IMG/VR virus record: IMGVR_UViG_3300046475_000120
Span: 1,183-65,182 of that record
DNA from: a virus
Taxonomy: Duplodnaviria; Caudoviricetes
DNA: 64,000 bases
Strand: one strand, 5' to 3'
The notes beneath the pieces are model-generated. The model saw only the letters and a list, made by a program, of their open reading frames with translations, had not been told where the DNA came from and did not search any database. The position numbers were made by a program, and so were the translations under genes. Of this stretch, positions 22,296 through 26,454 are shown piece by piece. Position 1 is the first letter of the stretch; each line of letters starts with the position of its first letter.

Positions 22296-22748
22296 ATGAG
22301 CGACGACGAACAACCCGGCGCTGTCATGGGCGTCACCAGTGGCGTGAAAACCATGGCCGACGACACCCTGCGCATTTCCTTTGACGTGGAGCCACGCTTC
22401 GCGCAGCTGGCGTTCCAACTGTTCGGCACGCGCGGCACGCCGGTAGCCATCGCGCGGCTGTTGAAGTCGGCAGCGATCGAGCAGGACCGGCAGGAAACCG
22501 AGCGCAACGTCGGCGGCCAGCTCGCCCGGCTTGCGGGGCAGTTCTGCAATGCCGAACCGTTTCAGTCATGGCTACGCAAGACCTACGATCCGAAGCCGCG
22601 CACGCCAGCCGAAGCTGCCGAGATTATCAGGCTCGTGTGCAAGGTCGCATCGCGCGCCGACCTGGACCACGATGAAGCGGCGGCGTCGATCTTTCATCTG
22701 CAGTTCCGGCTTCCCTATAACGAGTGGCTGAAAGGCGGCATGCAATGA
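22296..22748 (+). CDS. Hypothetical phage protein
   Basis: FQSWL..AEIIRLVCKVASRADLD motif found in nin-region proteins. Confidence 0.7.
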   Translation: MSDDEQPGAVMGVTSGVKTMADDTLRISFDVEPRFAQLAFQLFGTRGTPVAIARLLKSAAIEQDRQETERNVGGQLARLAGQFCNAEPFQSWLRKTYDPKPRTPAEAAEIIRLVCKVASRADLDHDEAAASIFHLQFRLPYNEWLKGGMQ

Positions 22749-23005
22749 AGCGCTGCGACCATGCCAATTTCTGCGGCAAGCGCATGGCCCACGGCGACCG
22801 CGCCAACGGCTGCAATTCCATCGACCAGGAGCAATGCGATCCGGTGATGGGAAGCTCGACCACCGCCCCGGCCGGCGCCGACGATGCGCCATACCGCCGC
22901 TGCACCAACTGCTACCGGGTCAAAACGCGGCGCGAGTGGATGGCCGGCAGCGGCGCGCGGATGTGCGATTGCGGGTGTTTCAGCTACCAGCCGCTTCCCG
23001 CATGA
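22745..23005 (+). CDS. Cys-rich small protein
   Basis: ATGA coupling; CxxC motifs. Confidence 0.55.
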   Translation: MKRCDHANFCGKRMAHGDRANGCNSIDQEQCDPVMGSSTTAPAGADDAPYRRCTNCYRVKTRREWMAGSGARMCDCGCFSYQPLPA

Positions 23006-23460
23006 AGCAGGGCAAGCCAATGCAGCGCTCGCCAATGGCGCGAGGCACCAGTCAACTCAAGACTAAATCCCCGATGAACCGCGGCACGCCGCTGCGCGCG
23101 AAGTCGGCGATGAAGGCGAACGCCAAGCCGATCCGCAAGGTCAGCAAGACCAACGCCAAGCGCGAGAAGTCCGGCGAGGACAAGCTGTGCCGCGGCCAGC
23201 CTTGCTACCTGGCGATCCCGGGCTGCTGCCGCAACGACATCGCCAGCGTAGTGCCGGCCCATTCGAACCAGCTTCGGCATGGAAAAGGCAAGGGCATCAA
23301 GGCGCTCGACGTCTACACCGTTCCGGCCTGCCGGGATTGTCATAGCGAACTGGATCAGGGCAAGCGCTTCACCCGCGAGGAAAAATTCGCCATCTGGGAC
23401 AGTGCCTATGCGCGCTGGCTGCCGGTACGCGACCTGTTGCAATCTCCCAACAAGAAATAA
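23002..23460 (+). CDS. DUF1364/YbcO-like Zn-binding nuclease
   Basis: CRGQPCYLAIPGCC..VVPAHSN..GKGKGIKA.D..ACRDCH. Confidence 0.85.
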   Translation: MKQGKPMQRSPMARGTSQLKTKSPMNRGTPLRAKSAMKANAKPIRKVSKTNAKREKSGEDKLCRGQPCYLAIPGCCRNDIASVVPAHSNQLRHGKGKGIKALDVYTVPACRDCHSELDQGKRFTREEKFAIWDSAYARWLPVRDLLQSPNKK

Positions 23461-23475
23461 AAATCGAACCATCGG

Positions 23476-23653
23476 TTGATTTCCCTCAAACTCGCGCTAT
23501 ACTCACCTCTGTGGTTTCGCAAAGAGACCGCCGGCTGTGACGGTCGTTACCCAAGAACGCAATGAATCTTTCGATAAGCAACCCGCTGACCCTTCGCCAC
23601 TCCTGCGGCATCTTGGGACGTCACCAGTGGGTTGCTTTTCAAAGGGTTCATTG
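23476..23653 (+). promoter_or_regulatory. Promoter plus long structured leader RNA
   Basis: TTGATT-16-TATACT; stems 23560-23571/23641-23653 and 23576-23588/23625-23637 end at the ATG. Confidence 0.6.
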
Positions 23654-23836
23654 ATGCAAAAACATACCGCAAAAATCGAACAGTCGGCCCTCGACTACGT
23701 CTCCCTGCTGGCCCACGCCCGCATGATCCGCAACCACCTGATCGAAGACGCCCAGGCACGCGCCGAATTCGACGCCGGCCGGGTCCGGGTTTGCTTCAAT
23801 GCGCTGATGGTCAAGATGGGAGTGCGCATTGTCTGA
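23654..23836 (+). CDS. 60-aa hypothetical protein
   Basis: ATG directly after the leader stem; overlaps the MTase start. Confidence 0.55.
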   Translation: MQKHTAKIEQSALDYVSLLAHARMIRNHLIEDAQARAEFDAGRVRVCFNALMVKMGVRIV

Positions 23837-24989
23837 GCCCGCCTATTACAACGAATACGACCTGACCGCTGCCCAGTGGCTAGAAAACCTCATCAAAGCC
23901 GGCCACATTGCGCCTGGCGTTGTCGACCGAAGGAGCATTCTCGATGTGCGACCCAACGACCTGCTTGGATTTGCCCAATGCCATTTCTTTGCCGGCATCG
24001 GTGTCTGGTCCTACGCGCTTCGTGCCGCCGGCTGGCCAGATGATCGACCTGTTTGGTCTGGTTCCTGCCCTTGCCAACCTTTCAGCTCGGCAGGCGACGG
24101 AGCTGGGTTTGCTGACGAGCGGCATCTGTGGCCCGCTTTCGGGCACCTCGTCCGCGAGCGCAAGCCTGCAGTCATCGTTGGAGAACAGGTTGCGAGCAAG
24201 GACGTCGACCCTTGGATCGACCTTGTACACGCTGACCTGGAAGCCATGGGTTACGCCTTCGGGGGTATCCCGTTCCCGTCTGCGAGCGTCGGTGCGCCGC
24301 ACATCAGAGACAGGCTCTACTGGGTGGCCAACTTGCCGGTCAGCGGACGGAGAGAAAAACGTGCGGACGCTGGAAGGCGCCCAGCGGGAAATAGATCGAA
24401 AGGGTTCGCCGCAGGATCTTTGCATGGCGGCGTTGATGGCGGGCTGGCCGACAGTTACGGTGATGGACGCCAACCGGGGCAACAAGGACTCGCGGCTCTG
24501 GGACACCGGACGCCCACTGAATCAGATTGCGGCTCTGGCCGGCTGGTCAACTCCAATGGCGGGCACGCCAGCGCAGAACGGCAACAACGCAGCTGGCAAC
24601 AACGACAGTTCACGCAAGACGGTGGCCGTGGTGGCCTGGCACTTGCTGGTGGAAACATCAGGATGGCCGACGCCGACTTGTCAATCACCAAACTTGCTGC
24701 GCGGAAAGGGGCAGGACCCAGTGAAGCGCAAGGAGCAGGGCCATACGGTGAACCTGACGGACGCAATCAACTTCATCGAATTGAGCCAGCCGGCCCGACT
24801 AACGGTTTCTGGCGAGATGCTGACTGGCTCGGATGCCGGGATGGAAAGTGGCGGCCAGTTGAACCCGGCACATTCCCGCTGGTTAATGGGGCTACCGGCC
24901 GCGTGGGACGACTGCGCGGTTACGGAAACGCCATCAATGCTGAGCAAGCGAGAATCTTCATTGAGTGCGTGATGGAGTGCCAGCCGTGA
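23829..24989 (+). CDS. C5-cytosine DNA methyltransferase, alpha polypeptide (motifs I-VIII and X)
   Basis: FFAGIG (I), GSCPCQPFS (IV), GEQV (VI), PHIRDR (VIII), RLRGYGNAI (X); GGGAG RBS + TTG. Confidence 0.9.
   Translation: MSEPAYYNEYDLTAAQWLENLIKAGHIAPGVVDRRSILDVRPNDLLGFAQCHFFAGIGVWSYALRAAGWPDDRPVWSGSCPCQPFSSAGDGAGFADERHLWPAFGHLVRERKPAVIVGEQVASKDVDPWIDLVHADLEAMGYAFGGIPFPSASVGAPHIRDRLYWVANLPVSGRREKRADAGRRPAGNRSKGFAAGSLHGGVDGGLADSYGDGRQPGQQGLAALGHRTPTESDCGSGRLVNSNGGHASAERQQRSWQQRQFTQDGGRGGLALAGGNIRMADADLSITKLAARKGAGPSEAQGAGPYGEPDGRNQLHRIEPAGPTNGFWRDADWLGCRDGKWRPVEPGTFPLVNGATGRVGRLRGYGNAINAEQARIFIECVMECQP
23944..24972 (+). CDS. Overlapping +1-frame beta polypeptide of the C5 MTase (motif IX-like + four WPT modules)
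   Basis: AGGAG RBS 8 nt before the ATG; 342 codons open inside the alpha gene; QLNPAHSRWLMGLP motif IX-like. Confidence 0.8.
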   Translation: MCDPTTCLDLPNAISLPASVSGPTRFVPPAGQMIDLFGLVPALANLSARQATELGLLTSGICGPLSGTSSASASLQSSLENRLRARTSTLGSTLYTLTWKPWVTPSGVSRSRLRASVRRTSETGSTGWPTCRSADGEKNVRTLEGAQREIDRKGSPQDLCMAALMAGWPTVTVMDANRGNKDSRLWDTGRPLNQIAALAGWSTPMAGTPAQNGNNAAGNNDSSRKTVAVVAWHLLVETSGWPTPTCQSPNLLRGKGQDPVKRKEQGHTVNLTDAINFIELSQPARLTVSGEMLTGSDAGMESGGQLNPAHSRWLMGLPAAWDDCAVTETPSMLSKRESSLSA

Positions 24990-25348
24990 GCGAGCACTTG
25001 CACCAGGTGGCGATCACAAGCTGGGCCCGCAATCCGGCGGTGATCGCGCAGTATCCAGGCATCGACCTGCTGTTCTCTAGTCTCAACGGCGTCCATTTGG
25101 GAAAAAGTCAGGCCGGCAAGGCAAAAGCATCGGGCATGCTCGCCGGCGTCTACGACCTGATGTTGCCGGCACGCCGCGGCGAGTTCGTCGGCCTGGTGAT
25201 CGAGATGAAGTGGGCGAAAAACAAACTCACACCCGAGCAGGAATGGTTCGGCGCCCGCATGCGCGAAGAAGGATGGAAGACCGTAACAGCTTGGGATTGG
25301 ATCGCTGCGCGCGATGCAATCGTTGAATACCTCTCGATGCCGAAGTAA
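24986..25348 (+). CDS. VRR-NUC domain nuclease
   Basis: AGVYDL..GLVIEMK..LTPEQEWF. Confidence 0.9.
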   Translation: MSEHLHQVAITSWARNPAVIAQYPGIDLLFSSLNGVHLGKSQAGKAKASGMLAGVYDLMLPARRGEFVGLVIEMKWAKNKLTPEQEWFGARMREEGWKTVTAWDWIAARDAIVEYLSMPK

Positions 25349-25419
25349 GCGATGAATTTTGTAATGCCGCGCTTCGCGGCACCCGCTGGTCAACTCAAAT
25401 TAGATAATGGTGGTAATAA

Positions 25420-26454
25420 ATGAAGACTGCAGCAGGCACACTTGCGGCTCCTTTCCCTTACTTTGGCGGCAAAAGCGGCGCGTGCGAACTGGCATGGTCG
25501 CTAATGGGTAACCCGGCAAACTATGTCGAGGCGTTCGCCGGAAGCGCCGCAATGCTACTGGGGCGCCCGCATGATCCGGGCATCGAAACGATCAACGATT
25601 TCGACGGCTTCGTGGCCAACTTCTGGCGCGCGATTGTCGCTGACCCGAACGGCGTCGCCGAACATGCCGACTGGCCGTGCAACGAGATTGATCTGTTCGC
25701 CCGCCATTCATGGCTAGTTCGCCAAAAGGATACGCTGGTCGACGCTCTGCACGATCCCGACTACTTCGACGCCAAGATCGCCGGCTGGTGGTGCTGGGGC
25801 GCGTGCAACTGGATCGGATCTGGCTGGTGCGGGGGCGCGGGGCCGTGGGTTTGGGATGGTAAGCGCATCGTTGACCGTCGAAAACTTCCGCACCTCGGCG
25901 ATGCCGGGAAAGGTATAAATCGACAACTTCCGCACCTCGGCGATGCCGGGAAAGGTATAAATCGACAACTTCCGCACCTCGGAAATGCCGGGCAAGGTCG
26001 CGGCGAACTAATCGCCACATGGTTCAACAGCTTGCACGCCCGCATGCGCAACGTCCGTGTAGCTTGCGGCGACTGGTCGCGCGTGCTGAAAGATTCGGTC
26101 ACGACGCGCCACGGCATGACTGGTGTTTTCCTCGATCCTCCGTATGACAAGGGCGCGATGGACTACGGCAATGGCGGCATGGGGCTGGGCATATCGGCGC
26201 AAGTGCGCGCTTGGTGCGCTGCCAATGGCAACGACCCGCTGCTGCGCATTGTCCTGTGCGGCCACGCTGGCGAACACGACGACCTTCTTACCATCGGCTG
26301 GACCGAACACAAGTGGGCAGCGCGCAAAGGCTACGCGCTGACCGACGAAGCACTCGGCAACTCTGCATCAGAAACCGTTTGGGCCAGCCCACACTGCGCC
26401 GCCCAGATCAAGCCGCAATTCGACCTGTTTGCAGAAACCGTAACCGCAGCATAG
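25420..26454 (+). CDS. Dam-like (D12 class) amino-methyltransferase with an internal tandem repeat
   Basis: PFPYFGGKS, YVEAFAGSA, ETIND, FLDPPY. Confidence 0.9.
   Translation: MKTAAGTLAAPFPYFGGKSGACELAWSLMGNPANYVEAFAGSAAMLLGRPHDPGIETINDFDGFVANFWRAIVADPNGVAEHADWPCNEIDLFARHSWLVRQKDTLVDALHDPDYFDAKIAGWWCWGACNWIGSGWCGGAGPWVWDGKRIVDRRKLPHLGDAGKGINRQLPHLGDAGKGINRQLPHLGNAGQGRGELIATWFNSLHARMRNVRVACGDWSRVLKDSVTTRHGMTGVFLDPPYDKGAMDYGNGGMGLGISAQVRAWCAANGNDPLLRIVLCGHAGEHDDLLTIGWTEHKWAARKGYALTDEALGNSASETVWASPHCAAQIKPQFDLFAETVTAA
25885..25998 (+). repeat. 42-bp in-frame tandem repeat (LPHLGDAGKGINRQ), two exact copies plus one partial divergent copy
   Basis: CTTCCGCACCTCGGCGATGCCGGGAAAGGTATAAATCGACAA at 25885 and 25927; partial copy at 25969. 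Confidence 0.95.

What the first reader, a model, noticed from the sequence alone, without database searches (positions are those of the whole stretch)
23829..24989. C5 methyltransferase written in two fully overlapping frames, the second carrying four tandem TRD-like modules
Seen: frame A (386 aa) has motifs I, IV, VI, VIII and X but no motif IX. A +1-frame ORF (23944-24972, 342 aa) lies entirely inside it, has its own AGGAG RBS and ends in a motif-IX-like QLNPAHSRWLMGLP. It also carries four repeated modules starting GWPTC, GWPTV, GWSTP and GWPTP. The frame-A sequence over these modules is low-information Gly/Arg-rich filler. Established: M.EcoHK31I is an alpha/beta enzyme with motif IX in an overlapping frame, and Bacillus phage multispecific MTases (SPR, phi3T, rho11) use tandem TRDs. 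Inference: this locus combines both features, giving a cassette-expandable multispecific anti-restriction MTase in about 1 kb of dual-coding DNA.
Basis: partly seen in the sequence, partly recalled or inferred. Interest (0 to 1): 0.8.

Follow-up and report, generated by a model that had tools for sequence, protein, structure and literature searches.

The report
Two-frame phage methylase with swappable modules
One 1.16-kb stretch of this phage genome encodes two proteins in overlapping frames, the catalytic half of a cytosine methylase and a second protein built from exchangeable modules that probably chooses the DNA targets; activity has not been tested.

Summary
Observation confirmed. Frame A (alpha, 23829-24989) is a C5 cytosine methyltransferase core with motifs I, IV, VI, VIII and X. 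Its residues 171-321 are unconserved and predicted disordered.

Frame B (beta, +1, ATG 23944 to 24972, AAGGAG 8 nt upstream) is a real second gene:
- It is open in all 87 beta-selected loci, in 79/80 prophage loci from different species and in 79/80 loci chosen by alpha's N-domain alone.
- Its ATG is kept in 57/60 relatives.
- Its sequence is under purifying selection from residue ~63 onward.

Only about 340 nt (alpha 101-168 and 322-366) are constrained in both frames. In the middle only beta is, although alpha stays open (60/60).

New here: the four GW(P/S)T-led modules are cassettes.
- 239 relatives carry 1-7 modules of about 20 types in 195 arrangements.
- A type rarely repeats within one protein (19 observed, 57 expected).
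- Near-identical genes differ by single cassettes with sharp boundaries.

This fits tandem target-recognition domains, but the modules show no similarity to a Bacillus phage multispecific enzyme, and multispecificity is untested.

The closest precedent is M.EcoHK31I. This scan has already reported the two-frame layout in other genomes. I rate it a new variant of a known kind.

The parts
23829..24989 (+). alpha gene (frame A, 386 codons, TTG start that overlaps the stop of the upstream ORF). It is the catalytic subunit of a C5 cytosine methyltransferase.
   Evidence: ORF. phrog_363 E 7.5e-82 over aa 4-384. PF00145 aa 77-169. Profile matches M.HhaI 71-174. The AF2 model matches M.HhaI, M.HaeIII and DNMT1 by Foldseek, E 1e-6 to 1e-7.
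23829..24338 (+). alpha N-domain (aa 1-170), with motif I at 23988-24002, IV at 24069-24086, VI at 24180-24191 and VIII at 24297-24314
   Evidence: pLDDT about 90. Column identity 0.56-0.92. Codon-position pattern is alpha-only up to about aa 100.
24339..24791 (+). alpha linker (aa 171-321): unconserved Gly/Ala/Arg-rich read-through of the beta module array, kept free of stops
   Evidence: Column identity 0.01-0.2. pLDDT about 30. Only 13% of substitutions are synonymous in this frame, against 57% in beta. The frame is open in 60/60 relatives, where beta-synonymous shuffles expect 1.9 stops.
24792..24989 (+). alpha C-terminal block (aa 322-386): a conserved segment, then motif X (GNAI, 24924-24935) and a terminal helix
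   Evidence: Column identity 0.64-0.94. Helix 371-384 has pLDDT about 90. Dual-frame constraint over aa 322-368 (z=45).
23930..23946 (+). ribosome-binding site AAGGAG (23930-23935), 8-nt spacer and beta start codon ATG (23944-23946), all inside alpha codons 34-40
   Evidence: Sequence. In 60 non-redundant relatives the D-V codons read GAT-GTN, which makes the ATG, in 57. The upstream Asp uses GAT in only 21/60. Arg-Ser is AGG/CGG-AGY, giving GGAG, in 40/60.
23944..24972 (+). beta gene (frame +1, 342 codons), nested in alpha; the proposed DNA-recognition subunit
   Evidence: ORF. phrog_1008 E 4.7e-34 and phrog_31772 E 3.6e-41. At least 7965 hits among 90%-identity clusters. 17,618 50%-identity clusters at E<=1e-3, and 7,802 at E<=1e-30. 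The ORF is conserved.
23944..24129 (+). beta leader (aa 1-62): kept open, but its sequence is not under selection in this frame
   Evidence: +1-frame identity is no higher than the controls (z 5.3 against 4.5 for +2). The middle base of the beta codon (alpha's third base) is the most variable. pLDDT <50. Phage N15 lacks this part.
24130..24315 (+). beta N2 domain (aa 63-124, pI 12): a helix plus beta-hairpin, overprinted on alpha motifs VI-VIII
   Evidence: Excess +1-frame conservation z=29. Dual-constraint codon pattern. pLDDT 77-84, helix 70-89 and hairpin 95-117. pI.
24316..24435 (+). module 1 (starts GWPTC; type A)
   Evidence: The same type occurs as first, inner or last module in other proteins.
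24436..24534 (+). module 2 (starts GWPTV; type E, D)
24535..24654 (+). module 3 (starts GWSTP; type C, B)
   Evidence: Nearly invariant core found at positions 1/3, 2/2, 2/3, 3/4 and 4/4 in other proteins.
24655..24786 (+). module 4 (starts GWPTP; type G, F); this type is usually the last module
24787..24972 (+). beta C-domain (aa 282-342) with the motif-IX-like block QLNPAHSRWLMGLP..W, overprinted on alpha's C-terminal block
   Evidence: Column identity 0.74-0.89. hhalign places beta 291-325 on the block just before motif X of single-chain Mycobacterium phage Fushigi gp80 (E 9e-4). The block is present in all alpha-selected loci that could be checked.

Best explanation
The locus is a pair of overprinted genes that most likely encode the two subunits of one orphan phage C5 cytosine methyltransferase.

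Alpha (frame A) is the catalytic large domain. It has motifs I, IV, VI and VIII. A roughly 150-residue disordered tether follows, which has no selected sequence of its own. Alpha ends in a conserved block with motif X that packs back on the N-domain.

Beta (frame +1) is translated from its own AAGGAG-ATG inside alpha codon 39. It has four parts:
- a free-riding leader;
- a basic helix-hairpin domain;
- an array of four different cassettes of about 35-45 residues, each led by GW(P/S)T;
- a C-domain with a motif-IX-like block.

Shown here: both ORFs are kept by selection, which frame is selected in each part of the gene, the conserved start signals, and the cassette nature of the modules, including their exchange by recombination.

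Inferred: alpha and beta assemble as in M.EcoHK31I. Beta supplies what the small domain (TRD plus motif IX) supplies in single-chain enzymes. Each cassette type is an autonomous target-recognition unit, so this enzyme would methylate up to four target motifs and protect the phage DNA from several restriction systems. I put this last step at about 0.45.
For: 1. Both frames are open in every relative. This holds for 87/87 beta-selected loci, 79/80 prophage loci from different species and 79/80 loci selected only by alpha aa 1-170. The +2 frame is never open for more than 63 codons.
2. Shuffle tests. The +1 frame has 0 stops against 2-7 expected. The alpha frame through the middle has 0 stops in 60/60 against 1.9 expected, and the third frame averages 3.9 stops and is open in 0/60.
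3. Start signals. The ATG is kept in 57/60 through GAT at Asp39, against 21/60 GAT at Asp33. GGAG is created by AGG/CGG-AGY codons in 40/60.
4. Frame-specific selection. Excess +1 identity is z=29 over alpha 101-168 and z=45 over alpha 322-368, but z=1.5 in the pre-beta control. Codon-position patterns agree. Within module types, differences per site are 0.186, 0.131 and 0.473 at beta codon positions 1, 2 and 3. Of these changes 57% are synonymous in beta and 13% in alpha.
5. Structure. Alpha aa 1-170 and helix 371-384 have pLDDT about 90 and a C5-MTase fold, while aa 187-335 are disordered.
6. Motif IX. The beta C-domain aligns to the block immediately before motif X of a single-chain phage C5 MTase.
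7. Cassettes. 748 modules from 239 proteins fall into about 20 types and 195 architectures, with 1-7 modules per protein. The same type is found first, inner or last. A type repeats within one protein 19 times against 57+-6 expected. 21 pairs have flanks >=95% identical but different module strings. At nucleotide level L019 and L030 are nearly 100% identical except for exactly one module, and L009 and L019 differ over the whole array with sharp edges at its ends.
8. Precedents. M.EcoHK31I has its beta gene inside the alpha gene in another frame, with motif IX in beta (PMC2836561, PMC3404938). Bacillus phage MTases have tandem TRDs that give several specificities (PMC8936443).
9. Context. The gene lies in a complete 65-kb phage genome next to a D12 adenine MTase, and none of the ORFs scanned beside it (22296-26454) matches a restriction endonuclease family.
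Against: - No protein-level evidence exists for beta, for an alpha-beta complex or for any methylation specificity.
- Beta has no Pfam, PDB-sequence or Foldseek match. Its AF2 model is non-globular (pTM 0.29).
- The motif IX assignment rests on one weak hhalign hit (probability 23%) plus the sequence pattern.
- The modules show no similarity to the TRD region of M.SPBetaI.
- The repeat-avoidance statistic ignores shared ancestry among proteins.
- Some module pairs have a preferred order, for example type F is almost always last. This could point to one composite domain rather than independent units.
- In M.EcoHK31I the TRD is in alpha, so the analogy is partial.
Confidence: 0.7

Rival explanations
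1. Beta is a real subunit, but the modules are not independent target-recognition domains. Together they form one composite DNA-binding or clamp region, or a variable spacer. The enzyme then has a single specificity, or a relaxed one, and cassette exchange changes that one specificity or serves another purpose such as evading an inhibitor.
For: There is no homology to known TRDs. All modules share the GW(P)TP lead-in, like a structural repeat. Some ordered preferences exist, for example C-F 13:0, D-F 12:0 and D-H 12:0. Module 3 (beta 198-237) has pLDDT below 50 for almost its whole length.
Against: Proteins with a single module exist, 9 of 239, so one module suffices for a viable gene. Many type pairs occur in both orders, such as B-A 23:16, E-A 13:11 and G-D 11:9. 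Repeats of a type are avoided. Single-cassette replacements occur between otherwise identical genes. Each type is under strong purifying selection.
Confidence: 0.3
2. Beta is a real protein whose function is independent of alpha, for example a regulator or an anti-defence factor that merely shares DNA with the methylase gene.
For: Beta has no detectable methyltransferase domain. It has its own strong start signals.
Against: Beta always co-occurs with alpha at the same register in every locus examined. Its variable array lies exactly where single-chain enzymes have their variable region, between motifs VIII and X. Its C-domain resembles the pre-motif-X block of a single-chain enzyme. Alpha lacks any detectable motif IX or selected variable region of its own.
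Confidence: 0.07
3. There is one polypeptide made by two programmed frameshifts (A to B after motif VIII, then B to A before motif X). Alternatively the gene is a frameshifted pseudogene or an assembly error.
For: Reading A, then B, then A would give the canonical motif order I-VIII, variable region, IX, X.
Against: Beta is under purifying selection upstream of any such shift site (alpha 101-168, z=29) and has a conserved ATG and SD. The alpha frame is kept open across the middle in 60/60 loci. The motif-IX-like block (through WDDC, ending about 24916) and alpha's conserved R-V-G-R-L-R-G-Y-G-N-A-I block (from 24900) overlap in nucleotides, so no single reading contains both. The same layout is present in about 250 independent loci.
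Confidence: 0.03
4. Frame B is an accidental long ORF in GC-rich DNA with no product.
For: The gene is 61% G+C. The first 62 beta codons show no selection of their own.
Against: The ORF is open in Vibrio and E. coli phages at 51-57% G+C, where shuffles give P(0 stops) <0.004. Purifying selection acts in frame B within the modules. The start codon is conserved.
Confidence: 0.01

Closest known systems
M.EcoHK31I (E. coli, YGGCCR), a two-polypeptide C5 methyltransferase (Lee, Kam and Shaw 1995, as described in PMC2836561 and PMC3404938)
   Same: [quoted passage not shown] Alpha carries motifs I-VIII and X. Beta carries motif IX, which here is a motif-IX-like block.
   Different: In M.EcoHK31I the TRD is in alpha and beta holds only motif IX. 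Here beta is nearly as long as alpha (342 against 386 aa) and holds the whole selected variable region plus an extra basic domain, while alpha's middle is an unselected tether. This gene is an orphan phage gene, not part of an R-M pair.
M.AquI (CYCGRG), a split C5 methyltransferase (PMC3404938)
   Same: Two polypeptides, with the variable region and motif IX partly or wholly on the second chain.
   Different: M.AquI is described as two subunits split within the variable region, with motif X on the small subunit. Here the genes are nested and motif X stays in alpha.
Multispecific C5 methyltransferases of Bacillus phages (SPR, SPbeta, phi3T, rho11, H2; Trautner laboratory papers cited in PMC8936443 and PMC12707154)
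   Same: They are orphan phage enzymes with several modules in tandem between motif VIII and motif IX. Module size is tens of residues. My recollection, not checked here, is that their TRDs are about 40-50 aa and work independently of order.
   Different: Those enzymes are single polypeptides in one frame. There is no detectable sequence similarity between beta and M.SPBetaI. The modules here share a GW(P)TP lead-in, come in about 20 types and are encoded under a second, open reading frame. Specificities are unknown.
Nested ORF annotated in Escherichia phage K1H (ADA82326, 'putative Mte8-like protein', ORF28 inside ORF29 'C-specific methylase')
   Same: It is the same beta family and the same nesting.
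   Different: It is only an annotation with no function assigned. Of the other five phage records inspected, four annotate alpha alone and phiKX2 only part of the +1 ORF.

Membership tests
C5 cytosine DNA methyltransferase (Pfam PF00145) | Catalytic core with motif IV (PCQ), VI (ENV-like) and VIII (QxRxR-like), recognised by the family HMM | tested here: met
   PF00145 E 5.7e-11 over alpha aa 77-169. The profile aligns to M.HhaI 71-174, E 1.5e-13.
C5 cytosine DNA methyltransferase (Pfam PF00145) | C5-MTase large-domain fold | tested here: met
   The AF2 model of alpha (aa 1-170 at pLDDT about 90) matches M.HhaI, M.HaeIII, DNMT1 and DNMT2 by Foldseek at E 3e-7 to 1e-5.
C5 cytosine DNA methyltransferase (Pfam PF00145) | Canonical order I-II-III-IV...VIII-TRD-IX-X in one chain | tested here: not met
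   No motif IX or selected variable region is found in alpha. HhaI residues 33-70, which hold motifs II and III, have no counterpart between alpha's motifs I and IV.
M.EcoHK31I-type heterodimeric C5 MTase | Beta ORF lies wholly inside the alpha gene in a different frame | tested here: met
   Beta 23944-24972 lies within alpha 23829-24989, frame +1.
M.EcoHK31I-type heterodimeric C5 MTase | Alpha carries motifs I-VIII and X | tested here: met
   Motifs read. The terminal GNAI and helix are conserved (0.94) and confidently modelled.
M.EcoHK31I-type heterodimeric C5 MTase | Beta carries motif IX | tested here: inconclusive
   The pattern L-N-P-x4-R-W-L-M-G-L-P-x2-W is invariant or nearly so. hhalign places it on the pre-motif-X block of single-chain Fushigi gp80, E 9e-4, probability 23%. 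Pfam and PDB searches find nothing.
M.EcoHK31I-type heterodimeric C5 MTase | TRD located in alpha | tested here: not met
   Between motifs VIII and X, selection acts on the beta frame only.
M.EcoHK31I-type heterodimeric C5 MTase | Both polypeptides are required for methylation | not testable with these tools
   Needs expression and methylation assays.
M.EcoHK31I-type heterodimeric C5 MTase | Sequence homology to M.EcoHK31I alpha and beta | not tested
   The sequence is not in any collection I could address by reference.
Multispecific Bacillus-phage C5 MTases | Several modules in tandem between motifs VIII and IX | tested here: met
   Four modules lie at beta 125-281, between the overprint of motif VIII and the motif-IX-like block. 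Relatives have 1-7 modules.
Multispecific Bacillus-phage C5 MTases | Modules homologous to the known TRDs | tested here: not met
   hhalign of the beta profile against M.SPBetaI: probability 0.06%.
Multispecific Bacillus-phage C5 MTases | Modules are autonomous, order-independent and non-redundant | tested here: inconclusive
   The sequence data are compatible: the same type occurs at any position, both orders are seen for many pairs, repeats number 19 against 57 expected, and single-cassette swaps occur. Function was not assayed.
Multispecific Bacillus-phage C5 MTases | One recognition sequence per module | not testable with these tools
   Needs 5mC motif calling on module deletion or swap variants.

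The most novel reading that the evidence does not exclude
A very large family of proteobacterial phage C5 methyltransferases (at least 7,800 clusters at 50% identity) encodes its DNA-recognition subunit in the +1 frame of the catalytic gene. That subunit is built from about 20 interchangeable target-recognition cassettes, which recombine at GW(P)TP junctions and must each stay stop-free in the second frame. Phages could then assemble combinatorial multispecific protection against host restriction. This would be a Gram-negative analogue of the Bacillus phage multispecific enzymes, unrelated to them in sequence, on a two-frame, two-subunit chassis.
Probability: 0.4. Interest if true: 0.85.

Novelty: new variant of a known kind. 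Interest (0 to 1): 0.72.

Why it matters
- Overlap size: if true, this is one of the longest and most widespread same-strand gene overlaps in bacteria-infecting viruses, about 1 kb across thousands of lineages. Its constraint map is clear, with two dual-coded islands flanking a region where one frame is only kept open.
- Annotation: standard pipelines call either alpha or beta, label beta 'hypothetical', or flag a frameshift. Five of the six deposited phage records inspected annotate only one of the two ORFs.
- Testability: the cassette finding gives a concrete experiment. Natural gene pairs that differ by a single module, such as L019 and L030, predict a one-motif difference in 5mC pattern.
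- Application: a catalogue linking module type to motif would let phage methylation specificity, and so restriction evasion and host range among laboratory strains, be read from sequence. It would also offer a modular scaffold for programmable cytosine methylation, the use for which M.EcoHK31I was engineered (PMC2836561).

Tried and rejected
- Pfam on beta and on its C-terminal 94 aa found nothing, even at E<=10.
- A PDB sequence search with the beta profile gave 0 hits at E<=10.
- Foldseek of the beta model against PDB gave only noise, E>=1. The model is non-globular, so this says little.
- The ESM Atlas returned only unnamed viral 'hypothetical protein' clusters.
- hhalign of beta against M.SPBetaI found no similarity.
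- Pfam does not cover the motif IX/X end of single-chain Fushigi gp80 either, so Pfam cannot confirm that block as motif IX.
- Literature searches for a description of this phage family, for 'Mte8' and for overlapping or embedded cytosine methylase genes found no paper describing it. The library lacks most subscription journals. The original EcoHK31I and Trautner papers are not held.
- Single-linkage clustering of modules merged everything through the shared GWPTP lead-in. I replaced it with thresholds of >=45% identity and >=75% coverage plus Louvain communities. Type boundaries are still fuzzy in places, for example one search placed some B-like modules with an extension in type F.
- Regex detection of alpha and beta was too strict. 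I replaced or checked it with BLAST and by eye.
- Rejected readings: accidental ORF, pseudogene or assembly error, and double programmed frameshift (see the rival explanations).
Full report
**1. What is in the sequence**

Frame A (alpha) runs from TTG 23829 to the stop ending at 24989 (386 codons). The TTG overlaps the stop of the upstream ORF (ATTGTCTGA) and follows GGGAG. Alpha carries FAGIG (aa 54-58), PCQPFS (81-86), GEQV (118-121), PHIRDR (157-162) and GNAI (366-369).

Frame B (beta) is +1 relative to A. It is open from 23884, has ATG at 23944 preceded by AAGGAG with an 8-nt spacer, and stops at 24972 (342 codons). It contains four segments led by GWPTC, GWPTV, GWSTP and GWPTP, and ends with QLNPAHSRWLMGLP..WDDC.

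**2. Database identity**

Alpha:
- It matches phrog_363 'DNA methyltransferase' end to end (E 7.5e-82).
- Pfam PF00145 covers aa 77-169 only.
- A profile of 52 relatives aligns to M.HhaI 71-174.
- The AF2 model has aa 1-170 and helix 371-384 at pLDDT about 90, while aa 187-335 are at about 30. Foldseek returns M.HhaI, M.HaeIII, DNMT1 and DNMT2.

Beta:
- It has no Pfam family but matches phrog_1008 and phrog_31772.
- It has at least 7,965 hits among 90%-identity clusters, none with a Pfam domain; the few that carry a name are 'hypothetical protein'.
- It has 17,618 clusters at 50% identity with E<=1e-3, and 7,802 with E<=1e-30.
- In phage K1H the nested ORF was deposited as a 'putative Mte8-like protein' inside the 'C-specific methylase'. 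Of the other records inspected, epsilon15, N15, Fayden and RcCWillis annotate alpha alone and phiKX2 only part of the +1 ORF.

**3. Is beta a gene?**

*The frame is open.*
- All 87 loci gathered by beta similarity hold both ORFs in the same +1 relation.
- So do 79 of 80 prophage loci from different bacterial species. These are mostly Alpha-, Beta- and Gammaproteobacteria, plus one Nitratidesulfovibrio.
- So do 79 of 80 IMG/VR loci selected only by alpha aa 1-170. The exception is cut by a contig end. There the +2 frame is never open for more than 63 codons.
- The ORF is open in phages with only 51-57% G+C (Vibrio phage Fayden, N15, K1H).

*Shuffle tests.* Shuffling alpha's synonymous codons gives 2-7 stops in the +1 frame where none is observed. 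P(0 stops) is mostly below 0.05 per locus, and the +2 frame has 7-23 stops.

*The start is conserved.* In 60 non-redundant relatives alpha's Asp39-Val40 reads GAT-GTN, which creates the ATG, in 57. Asp33 uses GAT in only 21. The Arg-Ser codons eight bases upstream are AGG/CGG-AGY, creating GGAG, in 40 of 60.

**4. Which frame is selected where**

I used three tests:
- a null model that keeps each alpha protein but shuffles its synonymous codons;
- substitution rates by codon position;
- gapless comparisons within module types.

| Region | What the tests show | Frame selected |
|---|---|---|
| Alpha 2-37 (upstream of beta) | No excess +1 identity (z=1.5) | Alpha only |
| Alpha 40-100 (beta 2-62) | Excess no larger than the +2 control (z 5.3 against 4.5). 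Alpha's third base is the most variable. | Alpha only; beta's leader is open but not sequence-selected. It is predicted disordered and N15 lacks it. |
| Alpha 101-168 (beta 63-130) | +1 identity 0.453 against 0.247 expected (z=29). Both wobble positions are damped. | Both |
| Middle (alpha 171-321) | Within module types, differences per site are 0.186, 0.131 and 0.473 at beta codon positions 1, 2 and 3. 57% of changes are synonymous in beta and 13% in alpha. | Beta only |
| Alpha 322-368 | +1 identity 0.686 against 0.319 expected (z=45). All three positions vary at only 0.14-0.20 per site. | Both, strongly |

In the middle the alpha frame still has no stop in 60/60 loci. Beta-synonymous shuffles expect 1.9 stops, and the third frame averages 3.9 stops and is never open. 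Alpha's N-domain and its motif X end must therefore stay on one chain.

So 'fully overlapping' is correct for the ORFs. Dual constraint, however, is limited to about 340 nt.

**5. Frameshifting and artefacts are excluded**

A single chain read A, then B, then A would not need any of the following:
- beta's conserved start;
- selection on beta upstream of motif VIII;
- an open alpha frame through the middle.

In addition, the motif-IX-like block in beta and the RVGRLRGYGNAI block in alpha overlap in nucleotides, so no one reading contains both.

**6. What beta is**

By AF2 it is not a compact globule (pTM 0.29). Residues 70-117 form a confident helix plus hairpin (pLDDT 77-84), and parts of the modules and the C-domain reach pLDDT 70-83. 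The helix-hairpin domain (aa 63-124) is very basic, with pI 12.

The C-domain aligns by hhalign to residues 217-258 of the single-chain Mycobacterium phage Fushigi methylase. That block lies directly before Fushigi's GNGV motif X (E 9e-4, probability 23%). This is the only homology-based support for calling it motif IX. Pfam does not cover that end of Fushigi either.

Beta's variable array sits where single-chain enzymes have their variable region.

**7. The modules (the new part)**

I cut beta proteins at each W-x-T-[PTCVAS] lead-in lying between the hairpin and the C-domain.

- Counts: 239 distinct proteins gave 748 modules, with a median length near 39 residues and 1-7 per protein (mode 3).
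- Types: clustering at >=45% identity over >=75% of the length gives about 20 types and 195 different architectures.
- This window: it reads A-E-C-G in the labels.
- Position: the same type appears as first, inner or last module. (labels) places the window's first type at 1/4, 2/3, 2/4, 3/3, 4/4 and 5/6 and its third type at 1/3, 2/2, 2/3, 2/4, 3/4, 3/6 and 4/4.
- Order: many type pairs occur in both orders, although a few types prefer the last place.
- Within one protein: modules are not similar to each other beyond the lead-in (3 of 11,543 similarity edges). TRF finds no tandem DNA repeat in the gene.
- Repeat avoidance: a type recurs within one protein 19 times against 57+-6 expected on shuffling (4 against 45 in the smaller set).
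- Different arrays in the same backbone: 21 protein pairs have both flanks >=95% identical but different module strings.
- Sharp boundaries: L019 (EFO) and L030 (FFO) are essentially identical except across the first module. L009 (NG) and L019 drop to background identity exactly from the first module to the end of the array.

These are exchangeable cassettes. Every cassette must also be stop-free in alpha's frame.

The pattern is what is described for the tandem TRDs of Bacillus phage multispecific methylases (PMC8936443). There is no sequence similarity to M.SPBetaI, and no specificity data exist. I therefore treat 'one module, one target motif' as the leading inference, at about 0.45, and not as a finding.

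**8. Context**

The window belongs to a complete 65,182-bp phage genome with direct terminal repeats. Upstream lie a YbcO-type nuclease gene and a small ORF. Downstream lie a 127-codon ORF and a D12-class adenine methyltransferase. Among the ORFs scanned (22296-26454) none matches a restriction endonuclease family, which is consistent with an orphan, self-protective methylase.

**9. Comparison with what is known**

- M.EcoHK31I is the one experimentally shown case of a beta chain encoded inside the alpha gene in another frame. There beta holds only motif IX and alpha holds the TRD (PMC2836561, PMC3404938). Here beta holds the whole selected variable region, and alpha's middle is a tether.
- M.AquI is split, but motif X lies on its small subunit.
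- I found no paper in the held library that describes this phage family.
- This scan has already reported the two-frame layout on other genomes and reached the same reading. My tests agree with those notes.

**10. Verdict**

- Observation: confirmed.
- Interpretation: partly supported.
- Kind: a new variant of a known kind, namely an EcoHK31I-like nested two-subunit C5 methyltransferase whose nested subunit is a cassette array.
- Confidence: two real overlapping genes, about 0.93. Two subunits of one methylase with beta as the recognition subunit, about 0.7. Cassette-based multispecificity, about 0.4-0.45.

Noticed in passing
window 23829-24070 (alpha aa 1-80): Alpha seems to have a rearranged N-terminus. 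Only about 22 residues separate motif I (FAGIG) from motif IV (PCQ), and M.HhaI residues 33-70, which hold motifs II and III, have no counterpart there. Instead a highly conserved, confidently modelled strand-helix-strand (YYNE.D..AA.W... then VD.RSI.DV, pLDDT >90) precedes motif I. It looks like motifs II and III moved ahead of motif I.
   Followed up: partly
L087:1265-1579 (Mycobacterium phage Fushigi, inside gp80 'DNA methylase'): This single-chain actinophage C5 methylase also has a 104-codon +1-frame ORF over its motif VI-VIII region. The ORF encodes an LLPTPLARD segment resembling the GWPTP..D module lead-in. Overprinting of this region may therefore reach beyond the proteobacterial family.
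   Followed up: no
window 25878-25998: A 42-nt tandem repeat (2.9 copies, 94% matches) lies inside the neighbouring D12-class adenine methyltransferase gene (25420-26454). It gives three copies of a 14-residue LPHLGDAGKGINRQ unit.
   Followed up: no
L041, L048, L060 and L084 (IMG/VR loci): In some relatives the alpha ORF runs on to about 500-560 codons, well past the end of beta. This suggests a C-terminal fusion of alpha to another domain.
   Followed up: no
L090 (Variovorax sp. prophage): In this locus the alpha ORF is cut at its N-terminus and starts only at the equivalent of aa 61, while the beta ORF is intact. It may be a decaying copy or an assembly problem.
   Followed up: no
window 24965-25348: A 127-codon ORF overlaps the end of alpha by 25 nt. 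It has no Pfam hit, although by eye its sequence looks VRR-NUC-like.
   Followed up: partly
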